Under the pieces are notes generated by a model. That model did no database searches. It was not told the origin of the DNA and saw only the letters and a list, made by a program, of their open reading frames with translations. Below are positions 142 to 21,649 of a stretch of 32,000 bases of DNA, in pieces (the stretch's first letter is position 1; each line of letters begins with the position of its first letter). Source of the DNA: Candidatus Saccharimonadota bacterium (GTDB lineage: Bacteria > Patescibacteriota > Saccharimonadia > Saccharimonadales > UBA4665); the NCBI GenBank assembly GCA_016699935.1, contig CP064992.1:900001-932000 (forward strand). The letters run 5' to 3'. The position numbers and the translations under genes are program-made.

Positions 142-468
142 TGGCAGTTCTCGGACTGCCAAGCCGACCAACTTTGGGCAGCCAAAGTTGGACAAAGCTG
201 CCGGGGAGAATGCAAACGACCGGCTTACTTGAAATTTCTTTTGACCTGTTTGGTTCCTGCGAAACTCCCCGCCTTTGGCGGGGTCAAACATTCTCGTCAC
301 GCATGCAGTCAAAAGAAATTTCAAATCAGTCGTTATGCATCCCCGGGTTTCAGCGACCCAACCCCGATTGCTTCGAAGTGAGCACTCACTGCAGACCGAT
401 AATTACGAAGTTGTAGAAGCCGACAACATTCTGGCCGGGAGCCTCCGCATGGCCCCCACTAGTTACAT
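142..468 (+). repeat. Family A structured repeat, copy 1 (candidate ~330-nt ncRNA or non-autonomous element)
   Basis: Aligns end to end with 14001-14327. The first ~125 nt are identical apart from one T indel, and the rest differs by scattered substitutions. It contains nested inverted repeats, including a perfect 17-bp pair (229-245 TTGAAATTTCTTTTGAC with 308-324). A copy-specific GC hairpin, CCCCGCCTTTGGCGGGG, lies at 267-283. The track ORFs over this region are not kept in frame between the two copies. Confidence 0.8.
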
Positions 469-632
469 CGCTAACGCGATAATAATTAGCGGCCTTACGG
501 CCGCACTCTTATCTCATATCTCTTAACTCTTAACTCTATCTTGACTCTTCTCTTGACTCTTACCCCCATTTGGCTCGTTGCAAGTTGATTGTTTCTTGAT
601 CTTGCACGTTGATCTTTCTTGATTCGTGCCTC

Positions 633-667: not shown

Positions 668-1623
668 ATGAAACATATTCTTGAGGGGACGGATTTCAAG
701 CTGCCGGGTTGCCAGGCGGTTTTACCATGGCAAAGTGCGCGATGTCTATGACTTTGGCGACCGGCTTATGCTGGTGGCCAGTGACCGCTATAGCGCATTT
801 GACCGGATATTGGCAGGGGTGCCCAACAAAGGTGCGCTACTAACGGCAACGAGCCAGTGGTGGTTCGAGCAGACCGCTTCGATAGTGCCAAATCACATCA
901 TTTCTTACCCTGACCCAAATGTGGCATATTGTAAAAATACGAAGTTATCCCGCTAGAAATGGTGGTGCGAGGCTATATAACGGAGTTACCAACACCTCTC
1001 TGTGGCACACCTATTCGAACGGACAGCGCGATTACGGCACCTTTCAGCTTCCTGACGGGCTAAAAAAGAATGATAAACTACCCGAGCCAGTGCTGACCCC
1101 AACTACCAAGTTTGAGATACATGACCGCAATCTTACTCCGGCCGAAGCACTTACAGAAGGGCTTTTGAAGGATGAAGTTTGGCAACGTGTTAGTGACTAT
1201 GCCCTGCAACTTTTTACTTTTGGCCAGAAGGTGTCCGAAGCCAAAGGGTTGCTGCTGGTCGACACTAAGTACGAGTTTGGTCTGACGCCACAAGGTGAGA
1301 TTATTCTAATAGATGAAATACACACGCAAGATTCATCGCGCTATTGGCTGACAGAAAGCTACCAACAGCGGATTGACGAGGGTGTCGAACCAGACAATTA
1401 CGACAAAGAATATCTGCGGTTATGGTTCAAGGAGCGTTTCGACCCTTATGCAGATACGCCTGCACCAGAAGTACCAGCCGAGATCATCGAAGAGTTGGAG
1501 CGCCGATACCGGTTTGTTTACGAAAGTTTGGCTGGCCAGGCGTTTGAAGAACCCGATACAACGGACATTGTGAAGCGGATTGAAGCAAATGTACTGCGTA
1601 CACTGGGACAACATGAGAGTTAA
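668..1623 (+). CDS. purC: SAICAR synthetase (phosphoribosylaminoimidazole-succinocarboxamide synthase), frame-disrupted as sequenced
   Basis: The ATG at 668 (MKHILEGTDFKLPG) joins ORFs 681-956 and 919-1623. PurC hallmarks present: GKVRDVYD, LMLVASDRYSAFD, LLLVDTKYEFG and ILIDEIHTQDSSRYW. The motif IPLEMVVRGYIT is readable only in the third frame at 947-985. Three 1-nt frame corrections are needed (about 700-715, 947 and 985). Confidence 0.85.
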
Positions 1624-1708
1624 GAGTTATGAGATAAGAGATAAGATTTGTGCTTCGCACAGCGTATTCCCTATCTTACTCCTTAACTCTTATCTCTTAA
1701 CTCTAACC
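1622..1708 (+). terminator. Long imperfect hairpin right after the purC stop (possible terminator or structured spacer)
   Basis: AAGAGTTATGAGATAAGAGATAAGAT (1622-1647) is roughly complementary to ATCTTACTCCTTAACTCTTATCTCTTAACTCT (1673-1704). The loop holds an inner hairpin TGTGC-TTC-GCACA. There is no clear U-tract. Confidence 0.3.
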
Positions 1709-1923
1709 GCTAAGGAGCATGCATGAGCTTGCAGCCACTAGATTTACCTACCCCAACTAAAGAAGGAGAAATGAAAAAAATTACCCATTACCCTGTCGCC
1801 TGTCACCATACATTTACCATTATCCATTAGCCATGAATCCCGGGCCAATAGTGACAGGTTAATTGCGTATATTAGGCCACAGGCCACAGGTTACAAGCCA
1901 ATCTTCCCGGAGGGGAGCTTCTC

Positions 1924-3347
1924 ATGACTCTGCAACCACTAGATTTACCCACCCCAACTGACGACAACCGTTTCAATGCGGTTGATCCGCTCGATGGCCG
2001 CTATTACGACCCAGAGATTGCCAAATATCTTTCGGAACGGACTCGCATACTTACTCAGGCGCATAGAAGCTGCCCTGGCTTACGGCTTGGCGGAGTTTGG
2101 CCTTTGTAGCCAGGAAGTTGCCCAGCAGATAGATGCTGCCAGTCGCAAGATTCGTGGAAGATGTCGCAGAAGAAGAAAAGACTACGCGCCACGACGTAAA
2201 AGCCATCGTCAACACCATCAAAAAAAGATCTGCCAGAAACTGCCCAGCCCTATGTACATTTTGGCGCCACGTCTTATGATATAGTCTCGACAGCTATGAG
2301 TTTGCAGCTGCGAACCGCCGTGCACGATCTGCTTTTGCCTCGTTTGCAAGCTTTGCAAAAAACATTGGCCGAACTGGCCGAACGCTACGCCGACACTGTG
2401 CAAATAGGTCGAACTCACGGTCAACACGCCGTGCCAATCACTTTCGGTTATTTTCTAGCAACCTATGTGCAGCGTTTGGGTGAAAGCACTCGTTCGCTTG
2501 AGGTTTTGAGCGCTAAACTAAAAGGTAAATTCTCTGGGGCGGTTGGCACCTACAATGCCATCTCTGTTTTTGTGGACGACCCACTGGCGTTTGAAAAAAC
2601 CGTACTTGGCTATGTCGGCCTCGAACCAGCGCCAGCTGCCACACAGATTGTCCCGGCCGAAGGCTACATACGCTTGCTCGACGAGCTGGCCATTTCTGCT
2701 GGTGTCATGGCGAACCTATCGCACGACATGCGCAATTTGCAGCGCAGTGAGATTGGCGAAGTGCGTGAGAAGTTCGAGGAAGGCCAAACTGGCTCAAGTA
2801 CCATGGCGCACAAGCGTAACCCCTGGAATTTTGAAAACATCATCGGCATGTGGAAGCAAGTGACAGCGCAGATGGTCAATGCCAACCTAAACATATCGAG
2901 TGAACACCAGCGCGACCTGACCGATTCGTCCTCGGCCCGTTTCTACACAACGTCTTTTGCGCTCGTTGCCTCGATGGCGAAGCGTTTGAACGAGGTCATG
3001 AGCAAGATTGAAGTCGACGAAGAAGCCATGCAGTGCAACTTGTACCTGACGAAAGGTGCCATTGCCGCCGAACCGCTTTACCTGTTGCTCGAAAAGTACG
3101 GCCACACGACGGCGCATGAAGCATCCAAGGCGCTGGCTCACGAAGCAATGGAACGAAACGTCTCTCTGTATGAGGTAGCATCCCAGGCGGAATCGATCGC
3201 TCCCTACTGGTCCAAATTCACCGACGCCGAACGTGACCTAATCCGCTCCCCGAAACCCACTACACCGGTTTGGCCTCCCAGAAGGTCCACGAAGTTGTAA
3301 TAGAACAGCTAGAGTTTGACAATTATACAAATAGTAGTATAGTATAG
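1924..3347 (+). CDS. purB: Adenylosuccinate lyase, frame-disrupted as sequenced
   Basis: ORFs 1924-2109, 1976-2284 and 2296-3300, plus a shifted tail ending at TAG 3345-3347, concatenate to a PurB-type lyase. Motifs: PLDGRY, TRHDVKAIV, HFGATSYDIV, GRTHGQHAVP, the signature GSSTMAHKRNP, and a C-terminal ETHYTGLA. Four frame corrections are needed, one of them in the A7 tract at 2220-2226. Confidence 0.85.
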
Positions 3348-3352
3348 ATCAT

Positions 3353-3867
3353 ATGAGAAAACGTATTTTAACCTCAGCCGTTCTGTCTGTCGGGTTACTT
3401 TTGGGAGGCTGTAGCGAAACAAATCCAGAAACAAGGGTGACAGCTCAGCAACTTAAAGATAATGGATGCAAATCTGGAGAAAAATATCGTGTTGCCGGTA
3501 ATGTGGCGTTGCTAGGCAAAAATCGGAATGGATACCTTATCCAACAGTTGTGCCTGTCACAAAGTTGAATCGTATTATGATAGTGCGTCAAATACTACAA
3601 AAATGCGTACGGTCACAAGTACCGAGGTAAGGATTTCTATCACAGATGGTTGTCACTACTTACGATTTGCGCGGAGATGATGCAACTGATGCGGGTATCC
3701 GCGTCAAGGAAAAGGAGGGCGGATTATACGTACCGAATCTTCCGGTTGTTCCGGCATTTGATAGTACTCATACGGATAGTGTCGATGTCATCGGAGTCGC
3801 TACTCAAGACATGGCAAGGGGCCGCATTATCGCAGCCAATAGCATAGTCTCATCCGACTCGGAGTAG
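3353..3867 (+). CDS. Putative lipoprotein (fragments 3353-3568 and 3646-3867 probably belong to one gene)
   Basis: The N-terminus MRKRILTSAVLSVGLLLGGC has a signal peptide plus a lipobox Cys. The gap between the fragments is open in the other frames (…VESYYDSASNTTKMRTVTSTEVRISITDG…). Upstream lie TTGACA (3316-3321) and TATAGT (3338-3343). No recognisable domain. Confidence 0.5.
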
Positions 3868-4467: not shown

Positions 4468-5103
4468 CAGCATTGACCACTGATAAAATGTCATGTGCAG
4501 TGTCATGAGTGGCGTCTTGGGCATTTACGATGGTTATGTCAATATGCGGATCCATATAATCAGCCATAATAAGGGATGAAAGCTCTCGAAGCCCCTCCTC
4601 CATCCTCTGACTATGGTTTCTGCCAGCTATAGTTAGGCGGGATTTCCAAGCTTCGATCGAACACGGTCGAAGATAAATTTTCAGCAAATCGTAGGCTGGG
4701 CTTTGTAGAGCAGGTACACTTTTTAATGGAAAATCAAGTATCGGAACCAACCCCTGTTTCATGGGGCATAGAATTCCTTCAAAAGGAGTACCATATCTAA
4801 CACCATAGAGCCTATTAACGGTGACAAACGAACCATCTCTCTCTCTCTTCGATCGAACTCTGCTTCCGTCACGCTATCTTTATCTTTTTCTCCAGGGCGT
4901 AACTCTCGGGTGGTTACTGGTCGTACGTATTGGAATTGGGTCGTCCTACTTTGCTCTTGCATCGCTGCAATAACAGCCGATTTGCCGATTGCAGAGGGGC
5001 CGAGCAGTAATACGAATAATCGGTCAGGCCGGATATGACGCTGCTCTATCTCTTTGATTTGCTGCTCACGGACTTCAAAATTTGTACTACAATGATCAGT
5101 CAT
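4439..5103 (-). CDS. Guanylate-kinase-fold nucleoside-monophosphate kinase-like protein, frame-disrupted
   Basis: Motifs: P-loop LLLGPSAIGKS, VTTRELRPGEKD and, after one frame correction, DGSFVTVNRLYGVRYGTPFEG. The correction falls at the (CT)7 tract at 4836-4849. The ATG at 5101-5103 overlaps the stop of the upstream gene (AATGACTGA). Joins ORFs 4759-5184 and 4439-4762. Confidence 0.65.
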
Positions 5104-6004
5104 TAAAAGCAGCCTTAGCGAGTTCGATTGCAGTTCGAAGTTCATCGAAACTACGACGACTTGCGTCTTGCATAGTTTCTTCATCCCTTTTTTTGGGGTA
5201 TAAGATTGCCCTTGAAGCGCTTATCATAACGCCGTAGCCATGGCCATCCAAGCAAAGGGGTAAACTCCGCTCCAGACTACCACCCTGAGTACCGCCTCCG
5301 GCTAAAAGTATTGGTGTCTCATCTCCGATAGTATCTCGAATGTCTCGCAGGTTTTCTGGATGAGTTGCGCTGAGTACAGGTAAAATGTTTCCGTTTGTAT
5401 TCCATGTTGTCATACCTTCGCGCAATAGATGTCGCCATAGTGGTTGGCCATCAAATAGCTTAAGATCTTGTACCTCGCTGGCTGAAGGGTTAGAGGTATT
5501 GATGCATAGTACGACTAGTTTATTTTTCCACTCCGTGAACGGCTTAATAGCGTCCAAACCCATATAAGGATTGAGAAGGACGCCGTCTGCGTCAAGATTA
5601 CCAAAAATCTCGTCTGCAATAGCATTTGCCGTATGTCCGACATCCGCAAACTTTCCATCGCATATACGAACGACGTCAGGGTAGCTTTGTTTGAGGTAAG
5701 CAAATGTGTTAGCGAGTGCTTCTCGCCCGGCGCTTCCCTGAAAGAAATTTGAATTCACTTTATAATCTACGGCACTTGCGGCGGTTGCATCAATTATACG
5801 TTCATTAAACAAGGTTATGCCATCGCTCAAATGACCCTTGCCCCCCACTTCTTCCCATATTTCTTCTGGGATTTTACCCACTACAGGGTCTATGCCGACC
5901 CCGGCCATTGAATCAACTGATAACCATCTACGAATGATCTTTTCGATTCCGGGTGCTGCTGGTTGGTAGGGGTATAATTCTGGCATATGCTGTCTATTCA
6001 CCAT
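5096..6004 (-). CDS. OMP-decarboxylase family protein (type 2), paralog of the canonical pyrF at 11359
   Basis: Intact ORF. Motifs: VGIDP, YKVNSNFF, CDGKFADVGHT (the D-x-K-x-x-D catalytic motif), NPYMGLD, NTSNP and LAGGGTQGG. The likely start, ATG at 6002-6004, overlaps the upstream stop (GATGGTGAATAG). Confidence 0.7.
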   Translation of the reverse strand: MVNRQHMPELYPYQPAAPGIEKIIRRWLSVDSMAGVGIDPVVGKIPEEIWEEVGGKGHLSDGITLFNERIIDATAASAVDYKVNSNFFQGSAGREALANTFAYLKQSYPDVVRICDGKFADVGHTANAIADEIFGNLDADGVLLNPYMGLDAIKPFTEWKNKLVVLCINTSNPSASEVQDLKLFDGQPLWRHLLREGMTTWNTNGNILPVLSATHPENLRDIRDTIGDETPILLAGGGTQGGSLERSLPLCLDGHGYGVMISASRAILYPKKRDEETMQDASRRSFDELRTAIELAKAAFND

Positions 6005-7247
6005 CTGTAGCAAACTTTTCCCATGACGCATCGTTGTATAGCTCATGTCTGTGTTTTGCGGCAACGTGTTCACCTGCTCCACGTGAAGATGTCGTACCGG
6101 TAGGCCGTCTTACAACATTTATACCGCTCGATGCGATGCCACGTGCTTTACTTACATTGTCGGTTTGAAGGCTTATTCTCTCAATTCCAAGCGCGGTGAG
6201 AATCCTGCCCGCACCGGTATATGTCCTAATATCAAATGTATCCCCCAACAGTCTCTGCGCAGCAACTAATGTGTCGACTTTTTTTGGATTAGCCTTATTT
6301 GTTGCAACCGGGGTACCATTTTTATAGCCTTCAGTTTCCATTTTTGTAGCAGATCCGTAGCCCCTACCATCCTGTGCGGGAATATGGAGTATTATGCCCT
6401 CATCTTTATTAATGATCTGGCCCAGAGCAGTGTGGAGCTGTTCGCGACAATCACAGCCACGATCATCATATATCTGCCCGATATCGCAACCTGAGTCTAC
6501 TCTGACAATAAGGTCTTTTTTTGCCACTCTAACAATTGGTTTTGGTGAGAATAGTTCGTAAAATTTCCATGTGTCATCTGGTACGACTAGCCCATACGCG
6601 TAGACTGGGTGGCCGTTAAAAACAAATTTTTTTGCGTATACAGTTTCATAAATATCTGAGTCAGGGGGGTCCCTTTCGAGCGCGGCTAAAGCACTTATCT
6701 TTATATGCGCTTCGGGCTCTCGTAGTCCGATTGCGGTGACTAATCGATTGACCTCTTCCATCGTGTCGCCGTTCAATCCACTAGGACTTACTACCTGTGG
6801 GTAATAGGCCATGCCGGAAGAACAAGGACGTACCAAAACATGTTTTTTACCTCCACCAAATTGGCCCATGACACTTTCGTAGTTTGCATGGCCTGGGAGA
6901 GCTAGTTTATGACCCGCTTCATCTACTTCCAGTATTGTAACTGGGATATTCTGAGGATCTTCGTTGACTTCTTCAGGGTGCGTATTTACATAGATTATCT
7001 GAGAATATCGGTGCGAACCATCACTATCTATTGTCTCAACAGGTGACATCCATGCTGCCCCGCCGTCTACATCAAGGGGCCCGCCTAAAAATTGAGTAAC
7101 CATGCTGCTGGGATTGTTTCCTACGGTTTGGAGTAGGATAAGTTGCTCTAATGCTGAACGGTATCTTTCGCTTATTCGAGGCGCGCCCGCAGCACTAAAC
7201 CGCTCATATACTGATGGTGCTAATCCTGGTAAGAATACTTCACTCAT
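5994..7247 (-). CDS. GTP cyclohydrolase II-like protein with a long N-terminal domain (URC1-type architecture)
   Basis: Intact 417-aa ORF. The C-terminal ~170 aa match the RibA core: VRVDSGCDIGQIYDDRGCDC (a C-x10-C-x-C zinc triad), IPAQDGRGYG, FDIRTYTGAGRILTALGI and LQTDN. A ~240-aa N-terminal extension is present, as in URC1-like homologs. Confidence 0.7.
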   Translation of the reverse strand: MSEVFLPGLAPSVYERFSAAGAPRISERYRSALEQLILLQTVGNNPSSMVTQFLGGPLDVDGGAAWMSPVETIDSDGSHRYSQIIYVNTHPEEVNEDPQNIPVTILEVDEAGHKLALPGHANYESVMGQFGGGKKHVLVRPCSSGMAYYPQVVSPSGLNGDTMEEVNRLVTAIGLREPEAHIKISALAALERDPPDSDIYETVYAKKFVFNGHPVYAYGLVVPDDTWKFYELFSPKPIVRVAKKDLIVRVDSGCDIGQIYDDRGCDCREQLHTALGQIINKDEGIILHIPAQDGRGYGSATKMETEGYKNGTPVATNKANPKKVDTLVAAQRLLGDTFDIRTYTGAGRILTALGIERISLQTDNVSKARGIASSGINVVRRPTGTTSSRGAGEHVAAKHRHELYNDASWEKFATDGE

Positions 7248-9119: not shown

Positions 9120-10225
9120 ATTATTTGTTATGTATGTATACTCTTCCGTAGTAACTCACCACCTTTGCAACCTAAAGGTAGGCGTCCTAAACTGTTATTA
9201 CCACATAACAATGAAAGGAGCCTACCATGGCTTATTCTACCAACCCTAACTTACCAAAAGCGAGAGCAATTGCCATGCAGTTGCTCATCCGTGAAAAGCT
9301 ACCACTACAGGTGGTAGCGAACCGTTGCGGTGTACACCGCAGTACAGTCTGGCGCTGGAAACAGAAATGGGAGGCGCTCAATGAGAACGTTCAGCTTACC
9401 AACGATAACCGACCAACCAGGAGTGCCGGCAATGTATTTAGGCAAGCAGCCCTCAAGTGGCTGGTTCCCACCATTAGCTCCAGGCCATGTACCAGTCCTC
9501 GTGCTGTTGCTCCTTATATTGTTGCCCGAGTACTAGAGCTTCGGGCTCAACTTAAGCGCTGTGCTGAGGTTGTTTGGTACCACATCGCCCGCACGGATGG
9601 CTTACACGTAAGCCTGAGTAGTGTGCGCCGCATATTGCGGCGTTACCACTGCTTTGACGGTGCTCGGAAGAAACGGGTGCGTCCAGATAATCCAAGGCGT
9701 CCCCACGTGACTAGGCCTGGTGAGCTGGTTGAAACGGACACCATTCACTATATTTGCCCATTAACCAAGAGCAGACGGTATGTCTATACCGTCATAGATT
9801 TGTATACCCGTATGGCCTACGTCGAGATCCATCCTCGCATTCTGCCTGGCTTGGCTGCACGTGTGGTGCTACATGCCAGGAATGAGTTTGGCTTTGACTT
9901 CCATATGGTGCAGGCTGACAATGGTCCGGAGTTTAGCCATTACTTTGAGCAAGTGCTCAGAAGAAATGTTATGTCTACCCGACATACCAGACTGGGGAGA
10001 CCTAATGACAATGCACACATAGAACGCTTTAACCGCACCGTCCAGGAAGAATGTCTTGGAAGCTCAATATCCTACAAGATAACCACCAAGCACATACAAA
10101 CAAAACTAGACGATTACCTTGAATATTACAACTTCAAGCGAGTACACTTGAGTTTACAGTGCAAGACTCCTGCTGAAATGTTGCAAGGTCTTGAGTTCTC
10201 TACGCTCTTCAGCACATATGCAAGT
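9120..10225 (+). mobile_element. Insertion sequence with one DDE(rve) transposase gene; the ends are approximate
   Basis: Imperfect inverted repeats: CGTAGTAACTCACCACCTTTGCAAC (9137-9161) against the reverse complement of 10180-10204 (CGTAGAGAACTCAAGACCTTGCAAC). About 21 of 25 positions match, with two 1-nt indels. Weaker similarity extends outward (TATGT…). Exact termini and the target duplication are not resolved. Confidence 0.55.
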
Positions 10226-10270
10226 TCTGGAAGTACAAGGGCTAAATCCCCAATTATTAAGCTTTATTAA
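9227..10270 (+). CDS. DDE transposase with integrase-core (rve) domain and N-terminal HTH (IS481/IS3-superfamily-like)
   Basis: Intact 347-aa ORF with SD AAAGGAG. An HTH-like segment (VANRCGVHRSTVWRWKQKW) is followed by the DDE blocks ETDTIHY, VQADNGPEF and RPNDNAHIERFNRTVQEE, then YNFKRVHLSL. The ORF reads through the right inverted repeat. Confidence 0.85.
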   Translation: MAYSTNPNLPKARAIAMQLLIREKLPLQVVANRCGVHRSTVWRWKQKWEALNENVQLTNDNRPTRSAGNVFRQAALKWLVPTISSRPCTSPRAVAPYIVARVLELRAQLKRCAEVVWYHIARTDGLHVSLSSVRRILRRYHCFDGARKKRVRPDNPRRPHVTRPGELVETDTIHYICPLTKSRRYVYTVIDLYTRMAYVEIHPRILPGLAARVVLHARNEFGFDFHMVQADNGPEFSHYFEQVLRRNVMSTRHTRLGRPNDNAHIERFNRTVQEECLGSSISYKITTKHIQTKLDDYLEYYNFKRVHLSLQCKTPAEMLQGLEFSTLFSTYASSGSTRAKSPIIKLY

Positions 10271-11358: not shown

Positions 11359-12174
11359 GTGAAGTTTATAGATAAGTTGCGGGCGTCTGCGGTGAAGAAT
11401 GACTCGCTGGTGTGTGTCGGGCTGGATAGCGACGTGGCGAAGCTGCCAGCTGGAGTCGACCAACTTAGTTTCAATAAGGCAATTGTAGATGCCACGCACG
11501 ACTTGGTGTGTGGGTACAAACCAAATACAGCTTTTTATGAGGCCAGAGGTGCCGAGGGCATACAAGTCCTGAAAGATACATGCGATTACATACGGGCGAA
11601 AGCTCCCGATGTGCTTATCATACTTGACGCCAAGCGTGCTGACATAGGCAATACTAACGCCGGCTATGTGCAGTTTGCCTACGACTACCTGGGCGCCGAT
11701 GCCATCACTCTGCACCCTTACCTAGGCCGTGAGGCGCTAGAGCCATTCCTAGCCCGCGAGGATAAAGGCGCGATTGTGCTGTGCCGGACATCGAACCCTG
11801 GTGCCGGCGAATTCCAAGACCAGTACGTCGACGGCCATAAACTGTACGAGTATGTCGCCAAAATGGTTGCTGGTGATTGGAATGGCAGCGGCAACTGTAT
11901 GCTGGTGGTCGGTGCCACCTACCCTGCCGAAGCGGCAGCGGTCCGACAGATCGTAGGTGATGATGTGTGGTTTTTGGTGCCAGGCGTGGGTGCCCAAGGT
12001 GGCGATGTGCAAAAAACCATGGAAGCCGCCCAAAACAGCCGCGGTGACGGCCTGATAATTAGCAGCTCCCGTGATATCATCTTTGCCAGCTCCGGCACCG
12101 ACTTCGCCGCTGCAGCCCGAAATAGCACAGAATTACTACGAAGTGAAATTAACACCTATAGAAAGGGTAAATGA
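11359..12174 (+). CDS. pyrF: Orotidine 5'-phosphate decarboxylase (type 2)
   Basis: Intact ORF with a GTG start after the SD GGAGGGG. Motifs: CVGLD, YKPNTAFYE, ILDAKRADIGNT, LHPYLG, CRTSNPG and VPGVGAQGG. Confidence 0.9.
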   Translation: MKFIDKLRASAVKNDSLVCVGLDSDVAKLPAGVDQLSFNKAIVDATHDLVCGYKPNTAFYEARGAEGIQVLKDTCDYIRAKAPDVLIILDAKRADIGNTNAGYVQFAYDYLGADAITLHPYLGREALEPFLAREDKGAIVLCRTSNPGAGEFQDQYVDGHKLYEYVAKMVAGDWNGSGNCMLVVGATYPAEAAAVRQIVGDDVWFLVPGVGAQGGDVQKTMEAAQNSRGDGLIISSSRDIIFASSGTDFAAAARNSTELLRSEINTYRKGK

Positions 12175-12807: not shown

Positions 12808-13897
12808 ATGCTGTACGATCCTAGTAAGACGTTTGAGGAAAATGTGGTGAATGGGCCGTTTGATTTGCCTGACCCAACCCGGCTGCCTTTGCAGGGAGAC
12901 TCCCTGCAAGACGAGGCGCAGTTTATGTTCCTCGGATTTCCTATTAACTTTCCGTTTGGGATTGCGGCTGGTTCCCTGCCGACCTCTCGCCATACCAATG
13001 CGGCCTTTGAGCTTGGCTACGACGTGGTGGTTTATAAAACCCAGCGAGCGCACGATTTCCCGTGCAACCCATATCCCAACGTTTTACCGCTACAGGTTGC
13101 AGGAGATTTAACACTCGAAAAACTGAAAGAGCCACTTGTTGTCACTGCTGATTATACAAGCGATCTGTCAAAACTCAACATTACGAATTCTTTTGGCGTG
13201 CCCTCGCCTGACCCGGCGGTATGGACGGCCGACTTGCCTGCCGCTCTGGCTGGTGCCGGGAAAGGCCAGCTGCTCATCATGAGTGTGGTCGGCACTATAC
13301 GTGAGGGCTATGGGCCAGAAGAATATTATGATGATTTTGCAACTGCAGCGCGGCTAGCCAAACTGGCTGGGGCGAAAGCGGTCGAGATCAATCTGTCTTG
13401 CCCAAACGTAGCAAGCGAAGGTGTGATTTGCTATAACCACGATGCAGTAGTCGAAATATGCAAGCGTACCAAAGCGGTGCTCGGCAACACGCCACTGATT
13501 ATCAAAATCGGCTATTTCACTCCGGATCAACAAAACACCCTTGAGGAAATAGTCCGGGATATCACGCCGTATGTGGCGGCCATAAGCGCCATCAATACGC
13601 TGCAGGGTTCGATTTGTGAATGATGATGGTGAGCAAGCCTTGCCAGGCGTGGGTCGGCTAAAAAGCGGGGTGTGTGGTGCCGGGATAAAATGGGCGGGTG
13701 TCGATATGGTGCGGCGGCTCGATGCACTGCGTAAACGCGAGGGGTATGGGTACGAAATAATCGGTGTCGGTGGTGTGATGATACCGGCCGACTTTGCCGA
13801 CTATCGTGCAGCTGGAGCAGATATTGTCCAGGCTGTCACTGCGCCCATGTGGAATCCCCTGCTCGCCCAAGAAATCAAAGCTATGCAACTCCAGTGA
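12808..13897 (+). CDS. pyrD: Dihydroorotate dehydrogenase family protein, frame-disrupted
   Basis: Motifs: FPFGIAAG, VVYKT, NSFGVPSP, EINLSCPN and AISAINT. After a shift near 13615 the protein continues as …GVCGAGIKWAG…IGVGGV (ORF 13616-13897). It lies in an operon with pyrF and pyrE. Confidence 0.7.
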
Positions 13898-13906
13898 CGT
13901 AACTTA

Positions 13907-13926
13907 CATTGTTGTCATTCCCGCGC
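13907..13926. repeat. REP-like GC hairpin ATTCCCGC-GCAG-GCGGGAAT
   Basis: A perfect 8-bp stem sits 10 nt after the pyrD stop. A related hairpin lies at 14326-14344. It could act as a transcript-end stabiliser or terminator stem, but there is no U-tract. Confidence 0.6.
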
Positions 13927-14000
13927 AGGCGGGAATCCATGCACTTCCCCACGTTTCTATGTATGCCAAACTTTAGTGTATCATTTAGCCTCACCCCCAC

Positions 14001-14327
14001 TGGCAGTTCTCGGACTGCCAAGCCGACCAACTTTTGGGCAGCCAAAGTTGGACAAAGCTGCCGGGGAGAATGCAAACGACCGGCTTACTTGAAATTTCTT
14101 TTGACCTGTTTGGTTCCTGCGAAACTCCTCATTACTATTCGTCAAACATTCTCGTCACGCAAGCAGTCCAAAAGAAATTTCAAATCAGTCGTTCTGCGTC
14201 CCCGGTTTTCAGCGACCCAACCCCGACTGCTTCGAAGTGAGCACTCACTGCAGACCGCTAGCAGAGAAGTTGTAGAAGCCGACAACATCCGAGCCAGAAG
14301 CCTCCGCATGGCCAGAATTAGTTATAT
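14001..14327 (+). repeat. Family A structured repeat, copy 2 (candidate ncRNA)
   Basis: Second copy of 142-468, in the same orientation. Local hairpins lie at 14002-14019 and 14027-14051. Nested long-range helices pair 14061-14074 with 14195-14205, 14089-14105 with 14166-14183, and 14107-14112 with 14143-14148. It lies between the convergent ends of pyrD and htpX. Confidence 0.8.
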
Positions 14328-14344
14328 TCCGCCTGTGGCGGAAT
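14326..14344. repeat. REP-like GC hairpin ATTCCGCC-TGT-GGCGGAAT at the 3' edge of family A copy 2
   Basis: A perfect 8-bp stem followed by GGGTTT. It resembles the hairpin at 13907-13926. Confidence 0.55.
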
Positions 14345-14410
14345 GGGTTTAAGTGGCTGGTGGCTTCGAACATGAGCCGATATCTAACGCCGAAGGCTTA
14401 TGAAAACCAA

Positions 14411-14441
14411 AAATATTTCCGGGTTGATTTCGGAAATATTT
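14411..14441. terminator. Bidirectional intrinsic-terminator-like hairpin
   Basis: An 11-bp stem, AAATATTTCCG / CGGAAATATTT, with a 9-nt loop. It is flanked by an A-run upstream and a T-run downstream, and sits between family A copy 2 and the end of htpX. Confidence 0.5.
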
Positions 14442-14536
14442 TTATAATTTTCAGGAAAGAGCAGCCAGAGTCGAATAAGCGAGCGCAGCGAGTTGTGAGA
14501 CCCTGAGCGATGAGAGAACCTATCTCGGTTCTCTCA

Positions 14537-15493: not shown

Positions 15494-16786
15494 GTGAAAA
15501 TCATAGGTGTTTTTGGGCAACAGCGTGGCGACGAGGGCAAAGGCCGTGTGGTCGATATGCTGGCCGAATCGTGCGACATGGTTGCTCGGTTTAACGGTGG
15601 TAGTAATGCTGGCCATACAGTAGTCCTACCCGATGGCCGTGAACTGGCCTTGCACATTGTGCCTTCGGGTATTGCTCACGAAAAAGCGGTCAACATCATT
15701 GGTAATGGCACCATCGTCGACCCAATCCGTTTCAGCGAAGAAATTGCGTCTATTGAAAGCCTCGGCATTACCGTGACACCCGAAAAGCTCAAGGTTAGTT
15801 CTTCGGCGCATTTGGTTCTGCCCCACTACAAAGTACTGGAAGAAATTCGCGAACTTGGGCGAAGTGCTCAAGGCTCGACCAAGGCAGGTATTGCCGATAC
15901 CTACGCTGCTAAGGCACAACGGTCTGGTGTCCGGGTCGAGCGGCTACTCGGTAGTCACGATGCTCTACTACAGGTCGTACGTGATGGCTTGAACTCGGTA
16001 CAAATGGAGCGAAAAAAGCATGGTTTGCCCCCTGTAGATATCGAAAATGAAGTGAAAATATACAGCGCAGCCATAGTAAAGTTGCAGCCTTTTGTGACCG
16101 ATACCTCAGTGTATGTAAACGAGCATTTAGCGGCGGGCGAGACGCTGCTGGCCGAGGGCGCGCAAGCTTTCTTACTTGACATAGATCACGGTATGTACCC
16201 ATACGTCACCTCTTCTTCGACGACGGCTGGTGGTGTGGCGACTGGCCTGGGTATAGCCCCAACTACGCTCGATCGGTCAATTGGCATAGTCAAAGCTGTG
16301 CAATCACATGTCGGTGGCGGACCGTTCGTGACCGAAATTCATGATGAAAAGCTGCTAGATGTTTTGCACGGCGATATGACGACCATAGACGCCGAAAAGG
16401 GTACCACAACTGGTCGTGTGCGTCGACTAGGTTATCTTGACATCACTGGTATACGCCGGGCAGATATGGTGAATGGTACGACAGAACTCGCCATTACCAA
16501 GCTCGATTGGGTACCACGCTATGGCAAAACTATCAAAGTCTGCACCTCGTACACCTATCGCGGTCAGACTCTTTCTATGGCACCAGATTCAGCCTGGGCG
16601 CTGGAAAAGTGCGAGCCAGTGTATGAGGAACTTTCCGCCTGGGATGAGGATATAACAGAGGTGCGATCTTTCTCGGAACTACCTACTGCTGCCCAAAAAT
16701 ACATTGAAGCTATCGAGAAATGGACGGGCTTACCCGTCACCTATATTGGCGTTGGCCCTCGCCGCGACCAAGTCATCATCCGCTAG
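15494..16786 (+). CDS. purA: Adenylosuccinate synthetase
   Basis: Intact ORF. Motifs: GQQRGDEGKGRVVD (P-loop GDEGKG), NGGSNAGHTV, GSTKAGI, GTTTGRVRR and GVGPRRDQ. The start could be GTG 15494 or TTG 15479. Confidence 0.9.
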   Translation: MKIIGVFGQQRGDEGKGRVVDMLAESCDMVARFNGGSNAGHTVVLPDGRELALHIVPSGIAHEKAVNIIGNGTIVDPIRFSEEIASIESLGITVTPEKLKVSSSAHLVLPHYKVLEEIRELGRSAQGSTKAGIADTYAAKAQRSGVRVERLLGSHDALLQVVRDGLNSVQMERKKHGLPPVDIENEVKIYSAAIVKLQPFVTDTSVYVNEHLAAGETLLAEGAQAFLLDIDHGMYPYVTSSSTTAGGVATGLGIAPTTLDRSIGIVKAVQSHVGGGPFVTEIHDEKLLDVLHGDMTTIDAEKGTTTGRVRRLGYLDITGIRRADMVNGTTELAITKLDWVPRYGKTIKVCTSYTYRGQTLSMAPDSAWALEKCEPVYEELSAWDEDITEVRSFSELPTAAQKYIEAIEKWTGLPVTYIGVGPRRDQVIIR

Positions 16787-17587
16787 TACGTTGTGTTAAA
16801 GCATTTTATAAGGTTTGCAAGGTTTTTTGGAACGTCGCTACATGTCAATTGGTTGATTGAATGGATGGGAAGGATTTTGGCGCTGGTGCTGGTAAGGAAG
16901 GCGGCTTCGTAGTCTTCGAGTGAGTTGAGCGGAATGGGCTGATGGACGATGTCGAAGCCTTGTTCACTGGCCAGTTTGAGAACATGGTCGCGGGTGACGC
17001 CAAGCAGGATGTCTGCTTCAGGCGGTGAGTAGATAGTATTGCCCTTTAGCATAAAGAAATTGCTGCGAGTTCCCTCGGTGATTTCGCCGCGGCGGTCGAT
17101 GAGCAGTGCGTCGTGCGCGCCTTTAGATTGAGCTGCCCGATAAGCTACATAGCTCGGGAGCATATTGAGAGTCTTCGCGTGTGGGTAGGTTCGTTCATAC
17201 TCGTAGGTGGTGCAGTGGCAACCGGTTTTGTACAGTTTCCTCGACGAAGTAAGGTGCGAGGCACAGGACGTATAGCTCGGCATCGGCCGCGGTTTTGCCG
17301 CCGATGAGCAGAATCTTGATATTGCATGTTTCCACTTCATTTGCCGCGATTATATCTGTTATGTAGTGCTCAATTTCACCTGGTTTGTAGGGGTGCTCGA
17401 GGCAGATAGCCTGCGCCGAAAGCTCAAGTCGGCGGCAATGCTCGCTTACAAAGTGTGCTTTGCTATGCGAAACGCGGATGGTTTCGTACACGCCATAACC
17501 GTATGAATATTCGATACTGGCGAGTGGTACAACTGCTTGCTCAGCTGGTAAAATATGGCCATTCTTTGAAAAATATGCGTAACTCAT
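16783..17587 (-). CDS. Class IV (branched-chain / D-amino-acid) aminotransferase-fold protein, frame-disrupted
   Basis: The ATG at 17585-17587 gives MSYAYFSKNGHILPAEQAVVPL…YGYGVYETIRV. After a shift around 17200-17340 the protein continues as …LNMLPSYVAYRAAQSKGAHDALLIDRRGEITEGTRSNFF…LLGVTR. Its end overlaps the purA stop. Confidence 0.65.
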
Positions 17588-17637
17588 GTACCTATAGCGT
17601 AGCTCAGAAAGGTACAATCACCAAAACTACTCTACCC

Positions 17638-17807
17638 CACGAGTTTCGCACCAGCCAGCCTGCCGTCCAGCGAAACTGGCCGCACCGCTGTCTTCTCCAA
17701 ACTCCTGCACATTTTTCCTCTAGTACTCTCTTCACCGTACTAAAGTACTGCTCGTTCCGTGCTTCGAGGAGACAATGCTTTATGAGCGTGTGAATGCGAA
17801 ACTCGTG
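17638..17807. ncRNA. Family B structured element, compact copy (candidate ~170-nt ncRNA; strand unresolved)
   Basis: A 13-bp closing stem pairs CACGAGTTTCGCA (17638-17650) with TGCGAAACTCGTG (17795-17807). Inner helices pair 17710-17713 with 17774-17777, 17717-17720 with 17766-17769, and 17721-17726 with 17737-17742. It shares three near-identical blocks with 21407-21649. Confidence 0.55.
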
Positions 17808-18934: not shown

Positions 18935-20166
18935 TTATGATTCCACAAAAGTTAATGCGTATCCGATACGCCCTGCTCGACCTGAGCGCCCGATACGGTG
19001 AATATAGTCATCGTAGGTCTGTGGTTGGGTGTAATTGATGACATGGGAGATATCGGTAACGTCGAGGCCACGTGCCGCAACATCGGTGGCAACGAGGATG
19101 TTCACGTCGCCTCTTTTGAAACTGGCAAGTGCGTGCGCTCGTTTTGCTTGGCTTTTGCCCCCGTGTATGCTGGCAACCTTGAAACCGCGCAGTCCGAGTT
19201 CCTTTTCGAGCCGTTCTACTCCGCGTTGAGTTGCTTCAAAGATGATGGCTTTTTCGGTGTCCGGATGAATAAGCAGGTCGTGGAGTTTGCCTTCTTTGTC
19301 GGCTTTACCGCTGAAGCGTATAACGTCCTGGTGGACATTTTCACTCGTATCGTTTGTCTTGACGGTAACAAGTTCTGCGTGAGGCGAAAATGTACGGATC
19401 AGTGCATCGACGCGGGCATCCATGGTTGCCGAAAAGTAAAAGGACTGGCGTATCGGGGCTACGTGCTCCAGCAGCAGTCGGACGTCGGCCACGAAACCCA
19501 TATCGAGCATGCGGTCAACTTCGTCGAACACGACAAGGTTAAACTGCGAAAGCTGCAATGTGCCACGGTCGAGGTGGTCTTTTATGCGACCGGGTGTGCC
19601 GATAACGAGCCGTGGTCGTGCGCGTAGTTCACGAAGCTGTGGACCATATGCCATTCCCTGAGTATAAGTGCGCTCGCAATGTTGCTGCCTTGAGCCATAC
19701 TTCGACACTCAGAAGCTATTTGTTGTGCAAGTTCACGCGTGGGAGCGACTATCAGGGCGCGGCTAGTGTTGTCGTTGAGAATCCGGTGCAAAATTGGTAG
19801 CGCAAAGGCAGCGGTTTTACCCGTACCGGTTCCGGCTATGCCGATAACGTCTTTACCGAGTAGTCCAAGCGCAATTGTTTGATCCTGTATGGGCGTGGGC
19901 GTTACGTAGCCCTTACGGTCGATGTTTTGCTGCAACCTTTTATCGAGGGTAAAGTCAGAAAAACTATGCTTTGTTTGGTATGATTCGCTGTCGGTTGGCG
20001 TGGCAACGCGAACAAACCTCTCGGGGTTTATGTATTGGCCACGACCACGCGGTTTGCGCTGCGGTCTTGGTTTGCTATAGGAGAACGGCTGCCTTTGTAG
20101 GCAAAGCCGCGTCGGGTTGATGTGGGCATAAAAATAAGTCCTTCGTGTGTAGCTTGGTTTATACAA
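18935..20166 (-). CDS. DEAD-box ATP-dependent RNA helicase, frame-disrupted
   Basis: Motifs: Q-motif region FSDFTLDKRLQQNI…PTPIQ, motif I AGTGTGKT, PTRELA, then after a shift near 19590-19700 TPGR, DEVD (a DEAD variant), SAT, and HRIGRSGRAG. The N-terminus is Arg/Lys-rich. The start is uncertain: TTG 20166, or ATG 20129 with a further shift. Confidence 0.85.
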
Positions 20167-21406: not shown

Positions 21407-21649
21407 AACACGCCTTTCGCACCAGCCAGCTTGCTTCCGGCACAGCCGGAACTCTGCTGGCTTCTCCAAACTCCTGCACATGTTTCCTCTTTAGTACATC
21501 GGCTTTGCCTCTTTTCTCGCTGCTCAGAAAGAAAATGTAAAACCTTTTCTTTCCTGTGCGGCTGCGACACCAGTCGCTGTACCTTAGTACAGCTCATTCT
21601 GTGCTTCGAGGAGAACATGCACATGAGCTCAAAGTGCTAATTGCGTGTT
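21407..21649. ncRNA. Family B structured element, expanded copy (candidate ncRNA; strand unresolved)
   Basis: Closing helix: AACACGC (21407-21413) and GCAC (21418-21421) pair with GTGC (21634-21637) and GCGTGTT (21643-21649). It carries the conserved blocks TTTCGCACCAGCCAGC, CTTCTCCAAACTCCTGCACAT and AGTACNGCTCRTTCYGTGCTTCGAGGAGA. A ~100-nt apical insertion includes the hairpin GAAAGAAAA/TTTTCTTTC. Confidence 0.55.

What the first reader, a model, noticed from the sequence alone, without database searches (positions are those of the whole stretch)
14001..14327. Family A: ~327-nt element with conserved nested helices, present twice (candidate novel structured RNA)
Seen: 14001-14327 and 142-468 align over their full length in the same orientation. 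The 5' ~125 nt are identical except for one T indel, and the 3' ~200 nt differ by scattered substitutions. Both copies keep two 5' hairpins (GGCAGT/ACTGCC and CCAACTTT/AAAGTTGG). Both also keep a ~145-nt arm made of three nested helices: CCGGGGA..TGCA with TGCR-TCCCCGG, a 17-bp TTGAAATTTCTTTTGAC helix, and TGTTTG/CAAACA. One substitution turns an A-U pair into a G-U wobble on the plus strand only (TGCA/TGCA in copy 1, TGCA/TGCG in copy 2). That weakly favours a plus-strand RNA. The apex of the arm is the one hypervariable site: a GC hairpin in copy 1 and an unrelated 14 nt in copy 2. Both copies are preceded by the octamer TAGTGTAT (a -10-like sequence) and followed by GC hairpins. The genomic contexts differ (a divergent promoter region versus convergent gene ends), so a cis-regulatory leader is unlikely. 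ORFs across the element are not conserved in frame. Inference: an sRNA gene family or a non-autonomous mobile element with an RNA-like fold. I cannot match it to RNase P, tmRNA, SRP, 6S, group I/II introns or omega/tracr-like RNAs from memory.
Basis: partly seen in the sequence, partly recalled or inferred. Interest (0 to 1): 0.7.

Follow-up and report, generated by a model that had tools for sequence, protein, structure and literature searches.

The report
Structured intergenic repeat family in Saccharibacteria
The two copies are real members of a previously undescribed family of 290-450-nt, hairpin-rich non-coding elements found several times per genome in a small group of Saccharibacteria, with folds kept by compensatory mutations but a function that is still unknown.

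Summary
The repeat is real: 142-468 and 14001-14327 align over 329 nt at 90% identity (E 4e-123). No Rfam family matches. The host is a Saccharimonadales bacterium (candidate phyla radiation).

I found about ten further variants in related metagenome genomes. Seven lie at the same pyrD/M48-peptidase intergenic site as copy 14001.

Sequence diverges strongly among them, but one architecture persists:
- two 5' hairpins (P1, P2)
- a long closing helix (P3a/P3) around a bubble with an apical hairpin (P4)
- a conserved tail
- two 3' hairpins (T1, T2)
- usually a G-poor pyrimidine tract

P1, P2, P4 and T1 show many double, pair-preserving changes; P3a/P3 shows a few.

Its "3' conserved part" is the old 3' strand of P3. 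The unit also runs further 3' than reported, to T1 (14344) and T2 (504).

I found no terminal inverted repeats, no conserved ORF, and no transposase, reverse transcriptase or nuclease next to any copy.

Best reading: a multi-copy, recombining, structured RNA element transcribed on the + strand at gene 3' ends. Rivals are a trans-acting RNA and a mobile element recognised as folded DNA. The family is new and its function is unproven.

The parts
14001..14020 (+). P1 hairpin of copy 14001 (TGGCAGT-TCTCGG-ACTGCCA)
   Evidence: Fold. It is a 7-bp helix, and 4 of its 7 pairs show double changes across 6 variants.
14027..14051 (+). P2 hairpin of copy 14001 (CCAACTTTTGG-GCAG-CCAAAGTTGG; one bulged T that may be a homopolymer error)
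   Evidence: In P2, 10 of 13 pairs show double changes and 100% of cells are paired.
14061..14205 (+). Long arm of the window type. The 5' strand is homologous to the family's P3 5' strand. The 3' strand (14166-14205) is a lineage-specific new partner. The arm encloses the conserved core GAAACTCCTC (14121-14130) and TTCGTCAAACA (14138-14148).
   Evidence: There are 45 pairs, no compensatory change among 3 sequences, and 5 G-U pairs on the + strand.
14206..14265 (+). Window-type-specific segment with small hairpins (GTGAGCACTCAC)
   Evidence: This segment has no counterpart in the compact or MBR-type variants.
14266..14325 (+). '3' module': the ancestral P3 3' strand GAAGTTGTAGAAGCCGACAACATCCGAGCCAGAAG, followed by the tail CCTCCGCATGGCC..TAGTTATAT
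   Evidence: This is the only part found by sequence search in other genomes. In other variants it pairs with CTCTTGGCAGAACTGTTGTTCGTTTCTACAAC.
14326..14344 (+). T1 hairpin of copy 14001 (ATTCCGCC-TGT-GGCGGAAT). There is no T2 in this copy.
   Evidence: T1 has four different sequences at the same place across variants, with 6 of 8 pairs changed on both sides.
142..191 (+). P1 (142-161), linker AGCCGA, and P2 (168-191) of copy 142
201..346 (+). Long arm of copy 142, with the P4-like GC hairpin CCCCGCC-TTT-GGCGGGG at its apex (267-283)
407..466 (+). 3' module and tail of copy 142
467..504 (+). T1 (467-480, ATCGC-TAAC-GCGAT) and T2 (489-504, GCGGCC-TTAC-GGCCGC) of copy 142
   Evidence: T2 is the only such hairpin in 32 kb. 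The same T1 and T2 occur in L013, L019 and L021.
505..600 (+). G-poor pyrimidine tract of ~7-nt repeats after T2 (C 25, G 7 in the first 80 nt)
   Evidence: In MBR-type copies this tract is part of the repeated unit.

Best explanation
Both window copies belong to a lineage-specific family of modular non-coding elements, 290-450 nt long, in Saccharimonadales.

Shown:
- There are several copies per genome, always intergenic.
- Where the upstream gene is known, the element starts just after its stop codon and points the same way.
- Variants share almost no sequence apart from a 3' module, but they keep the same helices through pair-preserving changes: P1, P2, P3a/P3, P4 and T1.
- Whole hairpins are gained, lost and swapped between variants.
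- Copies within one genome resemble each other more than they resemble copies at the same site in other genomes.

Inferred:
- The element is transcribed on the + strand, mostly by read-through from the upstream gene.
- It folds into a stable multi-helix RNA that ends in the T1/T2 hairpins and a G-poor, C-rich tract.
- It therefore acts in cis as a module that forms, protects or insulates the transcript's 3' end.
- It multiplies and is homogenised by recombination and gene conversion between copies, not by classical transposition.

The window type is a derived form. An insertion after the core created a new, perfectly complementary partner for the P3 5' strand, and this freed the old 3' strand.
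For: Family and shared site:
- Searches recovered the variants.
- The element lies between or next to pyrD and the M48 peptidase gene in the window, L001, L006, L012, L013, L015/16 and L019/20. It lies after pyrD in L031.
- The site is empty in L003 and L025/26.

Structure:
- P1 and P2 are 97% paired, 14 of 20 pairs show double changes, and 0 of 500 shuffles reach this.
- P4 and T1 are 96% paired, with 15 of 21 double changes and 0 of 500 shuffles.
- P3a and P3 are 93% paired, with 5 double changes and 3-7 of 500 shuffles.
- Folding z-scores run from -4 to -11.

Strand:
- About 14 G-U pairs fall on the + strand, against about 5 A-C juxtapositions in conserved helices.
- The T1 and T2 hairpins are followed by G-poor tracts, with C 36-46 and G 4-11 per 80 nt in seven of thirteen tracts.
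- MBR-type units begin at the stop codon of the upstream gene, leaving no room for a promoter.

Multi-copy state and homogenisation:
- There are 2 copies in this 32-kb window, with 125 nt identical between them.
- At least 6 copies occur in MAG_MBR_AS.10.
- Contigs of short-read assemblies break inside the element in L001, L010, L021, L017/18 and L030.

No coding or mobility genes were found at any copy, and there are no terminal inverted repeats.
Against: - There are no transcription data, so the strand, the ends and even expression itself are inferred.
- The whole-element free energy is lower on the - strand in all 8 variants. The shuffled controls are lower there too, so this is largely a composition effect.
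- T1 and T2 lack a following U-run, so they are not canonical intrinsic terminators. Three tracts (L019-21) are not C-rich.
- The structural alignments were made by hand and fitted to the hairpins. An automatic MAFFT/RNAalifold run recovers only P1, P3a and T2, and weakly.
- Some 'covariation' may be replacement of one hairpin by an unrelated one, rather than stepwise compensation.
- A simple 3'-end module would not obviously need such an elaborate, conserved architecture.
- Copies decay often (L012 disrupted by a gene, L013 lacking the 3' module, copy 14001 lacking T2). This fits a dispensable or selfish element as well as a functional one.
Confidence: 0.42

Rival explanations
1. The family is a set of trans-acting structured RNA genes, each transcribed from its own promoter. 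The RNA could be a protein-binding scaffold. It could also be a 6S-like RNA-polymerase decoy, because P3a/P3, the bubble and P4 together give a ~190-nt closing-helix/bubble/apical-hairpin shape.
For: - Covariation occurs in every helix.
- Conserved unpaired sequence islands sit in the bubble and tail (CGACAACUCCUC, UUCGUCAAACAAGUCUCGUUGCC, CCUCCRCAUGGCC).
- The element has been kept at one site across genomes that differ by 9-14% in PurA protein sequence.
- A sigma-70-like promoter (ATGAAA-18-TATAGT) ends 15 nt before P1 of copy 142.
- Genomes of about 1 Mb carry little junk DNA.
Against: - No promoter is found before copy 14001.
- MBR-type units start at the stop codon of the upstream gene.
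- Six or more divergent copies per genome, whole-hairpin insertions in the 'bubble', and frequent truncation (L012, L013) are unusual for an RNP or 6S RNA.
- No Rfam 6S or other hit appears even at E<=5-10.
Confidence: 0.27
2. The family is a non-autonomous mobile DNA element that is recognised as folded single-stranded DNA, as happens for IS200/IS605-type PATE/REP elements or integron attC sites. A recombinase encoded elsewhere in the genome would move it. Selection for transposition competence would keep the hairpins.
For: - The element is present, absent or partial at one and the same site.
- It is multi-copy and its copies are homogenised within a genome.
- It sits in a fixed orientation immediately after gene ends.
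- Genes are sometimes found between copies or inside a disrupted copy: an MBL gene between two copies in L005, and a 205-aa gene inside the L012 copy.
- Structure conserved without sequence conservation is also the hallmark of attC sites (established knowledge).
Against: - There are no terminal inverted repeats.
- The 5' and 3' terminal hairpins are unlike each other.
- No RYYYAAC/GTTRRRY core sites are present.
- No transposase, TnpB, IntI or reverse transcriptase lies near any of about 12 copies.
- Most loci hold the element at the same ancestral site rather than at new sites.
- The G-U bias points to RNA, although G-T pairs are also tolerated in folded DNA.
- At 290-450 nt, the element is far larger than attC or REP units.
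Confidence: 0.22
3. The element is a highly structured mRNA for a small peptide, of the type I toxin kind. AGGAG-N7-ATG in the 3' module starts a mini-ORF (MAxxSYI...), and its ribosome-binding site and start codon are sequestered by P3/P3a.
For: - AGGAG/GGGAG followed 7 nt later by ATG is present in copy 142, the MBR-type copies, L001, L012 and L031; copy 14001 keeps the ATG but has AGAAG in place of the ribosome-binding motif.
- Codons 5-7 vary only at the third position (AGC/AGT, TAT/TAC, ATC/ATT).
- P3 and P3a pair with these signals.
Against: - The start codon is AGG in L019/20 and AGT in L015.
- ORF length runs from 5 aa (L012) to over 40 aa, and the ORF tail is simply the translation of the T1/T2 hairpins.
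- ATGGCC is explained by pairing with GGCCA, and the pair covaries to GGCAC/GTGCC in L015.
- No called protein in 5.8 billion matches the window ORF.
Confidence: 0.03
4. It is a plain segmental duplication or chance similarity with no selected structure.
For: The two window copies alone show no compensatory change. The arm shows only one-sided changes.
Against: The repeat E-value is 4e-123. Divergent homologues in at least six other genomes keep the helices through double changes.
Confidence: 0.02

Closest known systems
Structured intergenic repeats of bacteria (pneumococcal BOX, enterobacterial ERIC, Neisseria Correia elements)
   Same: They are multi-copy and strictly intergenic, often lie just after genes, and are built from modules that come and go. 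They form stable hairpins when co-transcribed and are homogenised within genomes.
   Different: There is no sequence relationship. This family is 2-4 times larger and has a multi-branch fold with two 5' hairpins and two 3' hairpins. It has no terminal inverted repeats. Its helices are kept by compensatory change between genomes, which is not a described feature of those repeats.
Large bacterial structured RNAs of unknown function in Rfam (OLE, ROOL, GOLLD, HEARO, raiA)
   Same: It has several hundred nucleotides, many covarying helices, conserved unpaired islands, and no assigned function.
   Different: No Rfam model matches at gathering or permissive thresholds. It is multi-copy and rapidly rearranging. 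Its distribution, as far as I could search, is narrow: only a few Saccharimonadales genomes.
6S RNA
   Same: In the compact variants, the P3a/P3 closing helix, the large bubble with conserved strands and the P4 apical hairpin span about 190 nt.
   Different: It is multi-copy. Hairpins are inserted into the bubble. Extra 5' (P1, P2) and 3' (T1, T2) hairpins are present. No 6S model hit was found.
Integron attC sites, and IS200/IS605-derived PATE or omega-RNA-bearing ends
   Same: Structure is conserved while sequence varies. The element has a fixed orientation right after gene 3' ends, and it shows presence/absence polymorphism.
   Different: There are no core sites, no integrase, TnpA or TnpB nearby, and no guide-like variable end. 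T1 follows directly after the tail and is itself a conserved hairpin. The element is also much longer.

Membership tests
Any Rfam 15 family | Covariance-model score at or above the family's gathering threshold | tested here: not met
   There were 0 hits in the 32-kb window. The best sub-threshold hit is a plant miRNA precursor at 26 bits against a threshold of 117, which is a generic long-hairpin match. Nothing was found for the L019 and L005 variants.
MITE (miniature inverted-repeat transposable element) | Terminal inverted repeats at the two ends of the unit | tested here: not met
   The only inverted repeats are internal helices. The 5' end (P1) and 3' end (T2) are unrelated.
MITE (miniature inverted-repeat transposable element) | Target-site duplication flanking the insertion | tested here: inconclusive
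   Empty sites (L003, L025) are too diverged to align the flanks base by base. No direct repeat flanks copies 142 or 14001.
IS200/IS605 PATE or TnpB omega RNA | TnpA or TnpB encoded in or next to the element, or a guide-like variable segment at the RNA's end | tested here: not met
   No such domains occur in the window or in 12 loci (and the Pfam columns). The 3' end is a conserved hairpin, not a variable guide.
IS200/IS605 PATE or TnpB omega RNA | Similar subterminal hairpins at the left and right ends, bound by one transposase | tested here: not met
   P1 (GGCAGT/ACTGCC), T1 and T2 (GCGGCC/GGCCGC) are unlike one another.
Integron attC | R''/R' core sites (RYYYAAC ... GTTRRRY), length of 57-141 nt, and an IntI integrase | tested here: not met
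   The nearest motifs, CTACAAC and GTTGTAG, do not fit the consensus. The unit is 290-450 nt. No integrase lies in any locus.
Retron non-coding RNA | A reverse transcriptase gene directly downstream | tested here: not met
   The downstream genes are M48 peptidase (convergent), purC, a clpB-like gene, trehalase and an MBL hydrolase.
6S RNA | Match to 6S models, and one or two copies per genome | tested here: not met
   No 6S hit appears at E<=5-10. One MAG carries at least 6 copies.
6S RNA | Binding of RNA polymerase holoenzyme and synthesis of product RNA from the bubble | not testable with these tools
   This needs biochemistry or RNA-seq.
Type I toxin mRNA or small-ORF gene | A conserved ORF with a start codon in all members | tested here: not met
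   The ATG is replaced by AGG (L019) and AGT (L015). ORF length runs from 5 to over 40 aa. The protein search found nothing.
Structured non-coding RNA (generic) | Helices maintained by compensatory substitutions across homologues | tested here: met
   The alignments were hand-made and fitted to the structure, and the number of sequences is small.
Structured non-coding RNA (generic) | Transcription with defined ends | not testable with these tools
   No expression data are available. Promoter scans are weak.

The most novel reading that the evidence does not exclude
This is a new class of large structured RNA specific to a lineage of ultra-small, host-dependent CPR bacteria. It would have a dedicated molecular role, for example as the RNA subunit of an unknown RNP, a polymerase or ribosome decoy, or the RNA form of a mobile element that spreads by a structure-dependent mechanism not yet described. 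The six or more copies per ~1-Mb genome would then be under selection individually.
Probability: 0.25. Interest if true: 0.75.

Novelty: new variant of a known kind. Interest (0 to 1): 0.55.

Why it matters
Saccharibacteria have genomes of about 1 Mb with very little non-coding DNA, and almost nothing is known about their regulatory RNAs. A 300-450-nt element kept in several copies per genome, with six helices preserved by compensatory change, is either a functional RNA class awaiting a function or an unusually elaborate selfish repeat in a streamlined genome.

Either answer would say something about how these reduced genomes are organised. It also has a practical side: the element is where short-read assemblies of these organisms break. 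The family definition given here (architecture, conserved islands and a working covariance model for the 5' domain) makes a genome-wide census and a metatranscriptome check straightforward.

Tried and rejected
Searches that found no relatives:
- Rfam at gathering and permissive thresholds on three variants: nothing.
- Plasmid collection, blastn: nothing.
- Genome collection with a 20-mer from the window-type middle: nothing.
- Tolerant 3'-module pattern: 4 true loci in one MAG plus 3 chance hits. In metagenome contigs, only a chance hit inside a coding region.
- Three viral-contig scans: only 18-21-nt chance matches.
- Covariance model of the P1-P2 domain over 192 kb of fetched loci: only the seven known copies.
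- Literature searches: no description of such an element in Saccharibacteria or CPR.

Protein-based routes:
- Exact look-up of the window's M48 peptidase: not on record.
- Translating the element's open frame and searching 5.8 billion proteins: nothing for the window type. The same trick with an MBR-type frame gave two useful loci, L030 and L031.

Ideas considered and rejected:
- Protein-coding or mini-ORF reading: the start codon is not conserved.
- DGR template/variable repeat pair: the substitutions between copies are not adenine-specific.
- Retron, omega RNA, bridge RNA, attC and 6S: the membership tests failed.
- The IS481-like transposase at 9227-10270 as a partner: its ends show no relation to the element.

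Inconclusive tests:
- Automatic alignment with RNAalifold was too poor to test the hairpins, so I used hand alignments.
- Strand choice by whole-element free energy was uninformative once composition was controlled.

Full report
**1. The observation**

Window 142-468 and 14001-14327 are co-linear direct repeats. The two regions with their ~40-50-nt flanks (100-520 and 13960-14380) align at 89% mean column identity. blastn gives 89.7% over 329 nt with E 3.6e-123, and a 96-nt block is identical.

Both copies fold better than dinucleotide shuffles, with z -3.3 and -5.6 on the + strand.

Both 1-nt indels sit in homopolymer runs. Many genes in this window are split by frameshifts: pyrD at 12808-13897, the class IV aminotransferase at 16783-17617 and the DEAD helicase at 18935-20166. 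The indels may therefore be assembly errors, and the 'ORFs not conserved in frame' argument is weaker than it looks. The coding reading fails on other grounds, given below.

**2. Host and homologues**

PurA (15509-16786) is 86-91% identical to proteins of Candidatus Saccharimonadales / Saccharibacteria MAGs.

A 20-mer from the middle of the element found nothing among 185,579 species genomes. A tolerant pattern from the last ~60 nt found four loci in one Saccharimonadales MAG (MAG_MBR_AS.10: L005, L006, L008, L010) plus three chance hits. The metagenome scan and three viral scans gave only chance hits.

I then fetched the neighbourhood of purA homologues from relatives. I also searched with a spurious open frame of the MBR-type element.

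Related elements occupy the same pyrD -> | <- M48-peptidase gap as copy 14001 in L001, L006, L012, L013, L015/16 and L019/20. One follows pyrD in L031. The gap is only 30-37 nt and empty in L003 (a complete 1.2-Mb genome) and L025/26, and it holds other genes in L022/23.

Other copies lie next to an MBL-fold hydrolase gene and a gene of unknown function near mraZ (L005), before a ClpB-like gene (L010), and facing a CTP-transferase gene (L030).

MAG_MBR_AS.10 has at least six copies. Several short-read contigs start or stop inside the element (L001, L010, L017/18, L021, L030), as expected for a repeat.

**3. Anatomy of the family**

Sequence similarity between the window copies and the other variants is confined to three places:
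- the ~60-nt '3' module'
- two short islands, AACTCCTCAT and CTATTCGTCAAACA
- P1 in L019

The folds nevertheless share one plan, from 5' to 3':
- P1: 7 bp, with loop UYUCGN
- linker GSCGAC
- P2: 10-13 bp
- an A-rich joiner containing GGCCA
- P3: a long helix, CUCUUGG.../...CCAGGAG, 25-35 bp
- a bubble with conserved strands, CGACAACUCCUC and UUCGUCAAACAAGUCUCGUUGCC
- P4: an apical hairpin, with apex GCC-ACC-GGC
- a variable number of extra hairpins
- the P3 3' strand
- a tail, CCUCCRCAUGGCC...UAGYUAYAU, whose UGGCC pairs with the earlier GGCCA (P3a)
- T1: a hairpin with four different sequences at one fixed place
- T2: a nearly invariant GCGGCC-UUCG/UUAC-GGCCGC
- usually a G-poor pyrimidine tract of ~7-nt repeats

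That tract has C 36-46 and G 4-11 per 80 nt in seven of thirteen cases, is C/U-rich and G-poor in copy 142, L005a, L008 and L015, and is not C-rich in L019-21. T2 occurs only once in the 32-kb window, so it belongs to the element and is not a general terminator. In the MBR MAG the repeated unit runs from the stop codon of the upstream gene to about 60 nt beyond T2.

**4. Covariation**

These counts use hand-made, register-fixed alignments:

| Helices | Cells paired | Pairs with changes on both sides | Shuffles reaching this (of 500) | Paired in slid controls |
|---|---|---|---|---|
| P1 + P2 | 97% | 14 of 20 | 0 | 40-59% |
| P4 + T1 | 96% | 15 of 21 | 0 | not used |
| P3a + P3 (four variants) | 93% | 5 | 3-7 | not used |

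One P3a change is GGCCA/UGGCC to GGCAC/GUGCC.

There are three caveats. The alignments are fitted to the hairpins. The sequences are few and related. Some differences may be wholesale hairpin replacement rather than stepwise compensation. An automatic MAFFT + RNAalifold run mis-aligns the hairpins and recovers only P1, P3a and T2.

Even so, a hairpin of the same size at the same position in every variant, with unrelated stem sequences, is strong evidence that the structure is what is being kept.

**5. What the window copies are**

It shows no compensatory change, only two one-sided changes to G-U.

Its 5' strand (CTGCCGGGGAGAATG..CGGCTT..) resembles the P3 5' strand of other variants and the reverse complement of the window's own 3' module. 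The conserved core and the P4 position sit at its apex. In copy 142 the P4 position holds a GC hairpin. In copy 14001 it holds the bare core, which matches the MBR-type sequence 14/14.

The simplest reading is that an insertion after the core supplied a new, near-perfect partner (14166-14205 and 308-346) for the P3 5' strand. This left the ancestral 3' strand (the '3' module') unpaired. L013 has since lost that module, precisely between GACC.. and AGTTACATCGC.

Copy 142 keeps T1 and T2 as in L013, L019 and L021. Copy 14001 keeps a different T1 and has no T2. The 125-nt identical 5' half beside an 87%-identical 3' half looks like a gene-conversion tract.

**6. Strand**

In conserved helices I count about 14 G-U pairs on the + strand (P1 has 1, P3 has 6-7, P4 has 1-2, the arm has 5). 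Against these are about 5 A-C juxtapositions that would be G-U on the - strand.

Whole-element minimum free energy is lower on the - strand in all eight variants. The shuffles are lower there too, so z-scores are similar. The + strand is C>G and A>U.

Co-orientation with the upstream gene, the position of T1/T2 and the C-rich tract downstream all fit + strand transcription. Promoter evidence is weak: one 9/12 sigma-70-like site before copy 142 and none before copy 14001.

**7. What it is not**

- **A known RNA family.** No Rfam family matches.
- **A classical transposable element.** There are no terminal inverted repeats.
- **An element with a partner enzyme nearby.** No reverse transcriptase, TnpA/TnpB, IscB, integrase or Cas gene lies near any copy. 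The window's only transposase is IS481-like, at 9227-10270, and is unrelated.
- **A small-peptide gene.** The tempting AGGAG-N7-ATG mini-ORF (MAxxSYI) has synonymous-looking third-position changes. But the ATG is AGG in L019 and AGT in L015, the ORF is 5 aa in L012, and its tail merely translates T1/T2. ATGGCC is also accounted for by P3a pairing. No predicted protein matches the window frame.
- **A DGR pair.** Substitutions between the copies are not adenine-specific.

**8. Mechanism**

What is shown: a multi-copy, intergenic, modular element whose hairpins are under selection, which recombines between copies, and which is frequently truncated or lost at a given site.

What I infer as most likely (0.42): it is transcribed on the + strand, largely by read-through from the upstream gene. 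It acts in cis as a folded 3'-end module, with exonuclease-blocking hairpins T1 and T2 and a C-rich, G-poor tract that looks like a Rho loading site. Its copies spread and are homogenised by recombination.

This puts it closest in behaviour to BOX, ERIC or Correia repeats. It differs from them in being larger, in lacking terminal inverted repeats, and in showing real between-genome covariation.

The rivals are:
- a trans-acting RNA family, possibly with a 6S-like closing-helix/bubble/hairpin core (0.27)
- a non-autonomous mobile element recognised as folded single-stranded DNA (0.22)
- a small-peptide mRNA (0.03)
- meaningless duplication (0.02)

No expression data were available, so strand, ends and function remain inferences.

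**9. Novelty and score**

The family is not in Rfam, and I found no description in the searchable literature. It is a new family within the broad, known kind of structured intergenic repeats and non-coding RNAs, with unusual size and architecture. It comes from a poorly studied, genome-reduced phylum.

Its known distribution is narrow (a handful of MAGs) and its function is unproven, so I score interest at 0.55.

Noticed in passing
window 12808-13897, 16783-17617, 18935-20166, 919-3300: Many housekeeping genes are split into two overlapping ORFs or truncated: pyrD, the class IV aminotransferase, the DEAD-box helicase, and purC/purB. This suggests homopolymer indel errors from a long-read assembly, or widespread pseudogenes.
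   Followed up: partly
window 505-600, 1616-1712; L005 100-165; L008, L001, L006, L031 after T2: Low-complexity tracts of ~7-nt pyrimidine-rich repeats (CTCTTAA/CTCATGA/CTTGACT, or CCACCNT in other genomes) follow the elements. They also precede the start codons of purC and purB. One copy, at 1616-1646, is inverted relative to 507-537. Some units resemble -35 boxes (TTGACT) or boxA (CGCTCTTA).
   Followed up: partly
window 1722-1763 and 1923-1964: The first ~42 nt of the adenylosuccinate lyase gene (ATGA..CTGCARCCACTAGATTTACC..) occur twice, 201 nt apart at 83% identity, with an unrelated ~160-nt insert between them. This may be an insertion with a long duplication at the gene's 5' end.
   Followed up: no
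window 17638-17778 and 21409-21620: A second repeat family: three co-linear blocks of 26-47 nt at 79-94% identity, 3.8 kb apart. It is unrelated to the element studied here.
   Followed up: no
window 13914-13942; L013 ~1150-1175; L019 ~3579-3606: A hairpin just after the pyrD stop codon has conserved flanks (GTCAT...CCATGC) and different stem sequences in three genomes: TCCCGCGCAGGCGGGA, TCCCGAGCAATCGGGA and CCTGAACTTGTTTCAGG. It is probably the pyrD terminator. It is not part of the repeat, because it is absent before copy 142.
   Followed up: partly
window 14409-14443: A perfect 15-bp AT-rich hairpin is flanked by A-runs and T-runs (AAAAATATTTCCGGG-TTGAT-TTCGGAAATATTTTT). It looks like a bidirectional intrinsic terminator between the element and the convergent M48 peptidase gene.
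   Followed up: no
window 9227-10270: An IS481-like transposase (HTH_23 + rve + rve_3) lies between the two element copies. No clear terminal inverted repeats were found around it.
   Followed up: partly
L012 4116-4733; L022 1978-3955: In some relatives the pyrD/M48 gap has acquired extra genes with no Pfam match. One is a 205-aa protein with a signal-peptide-like N-terminus that sits inside a disrupted element. Elsewhere there are two genes of 246 and 377 aa. The site seems to be a hotspot for gene gain.
   Followed up: partly
window 5096-6082 (-) and 11359-12174 (+): There are two OMP-decarboxylase-family genes in the same 32-kb window, amid an unusual concentration of purine and pyrimidine biosynthesis genes (purC, purB, purA, pyrF, pyrE, pyrD, and a GTP cyclohydrolase II-like gene).
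   Followed up: no
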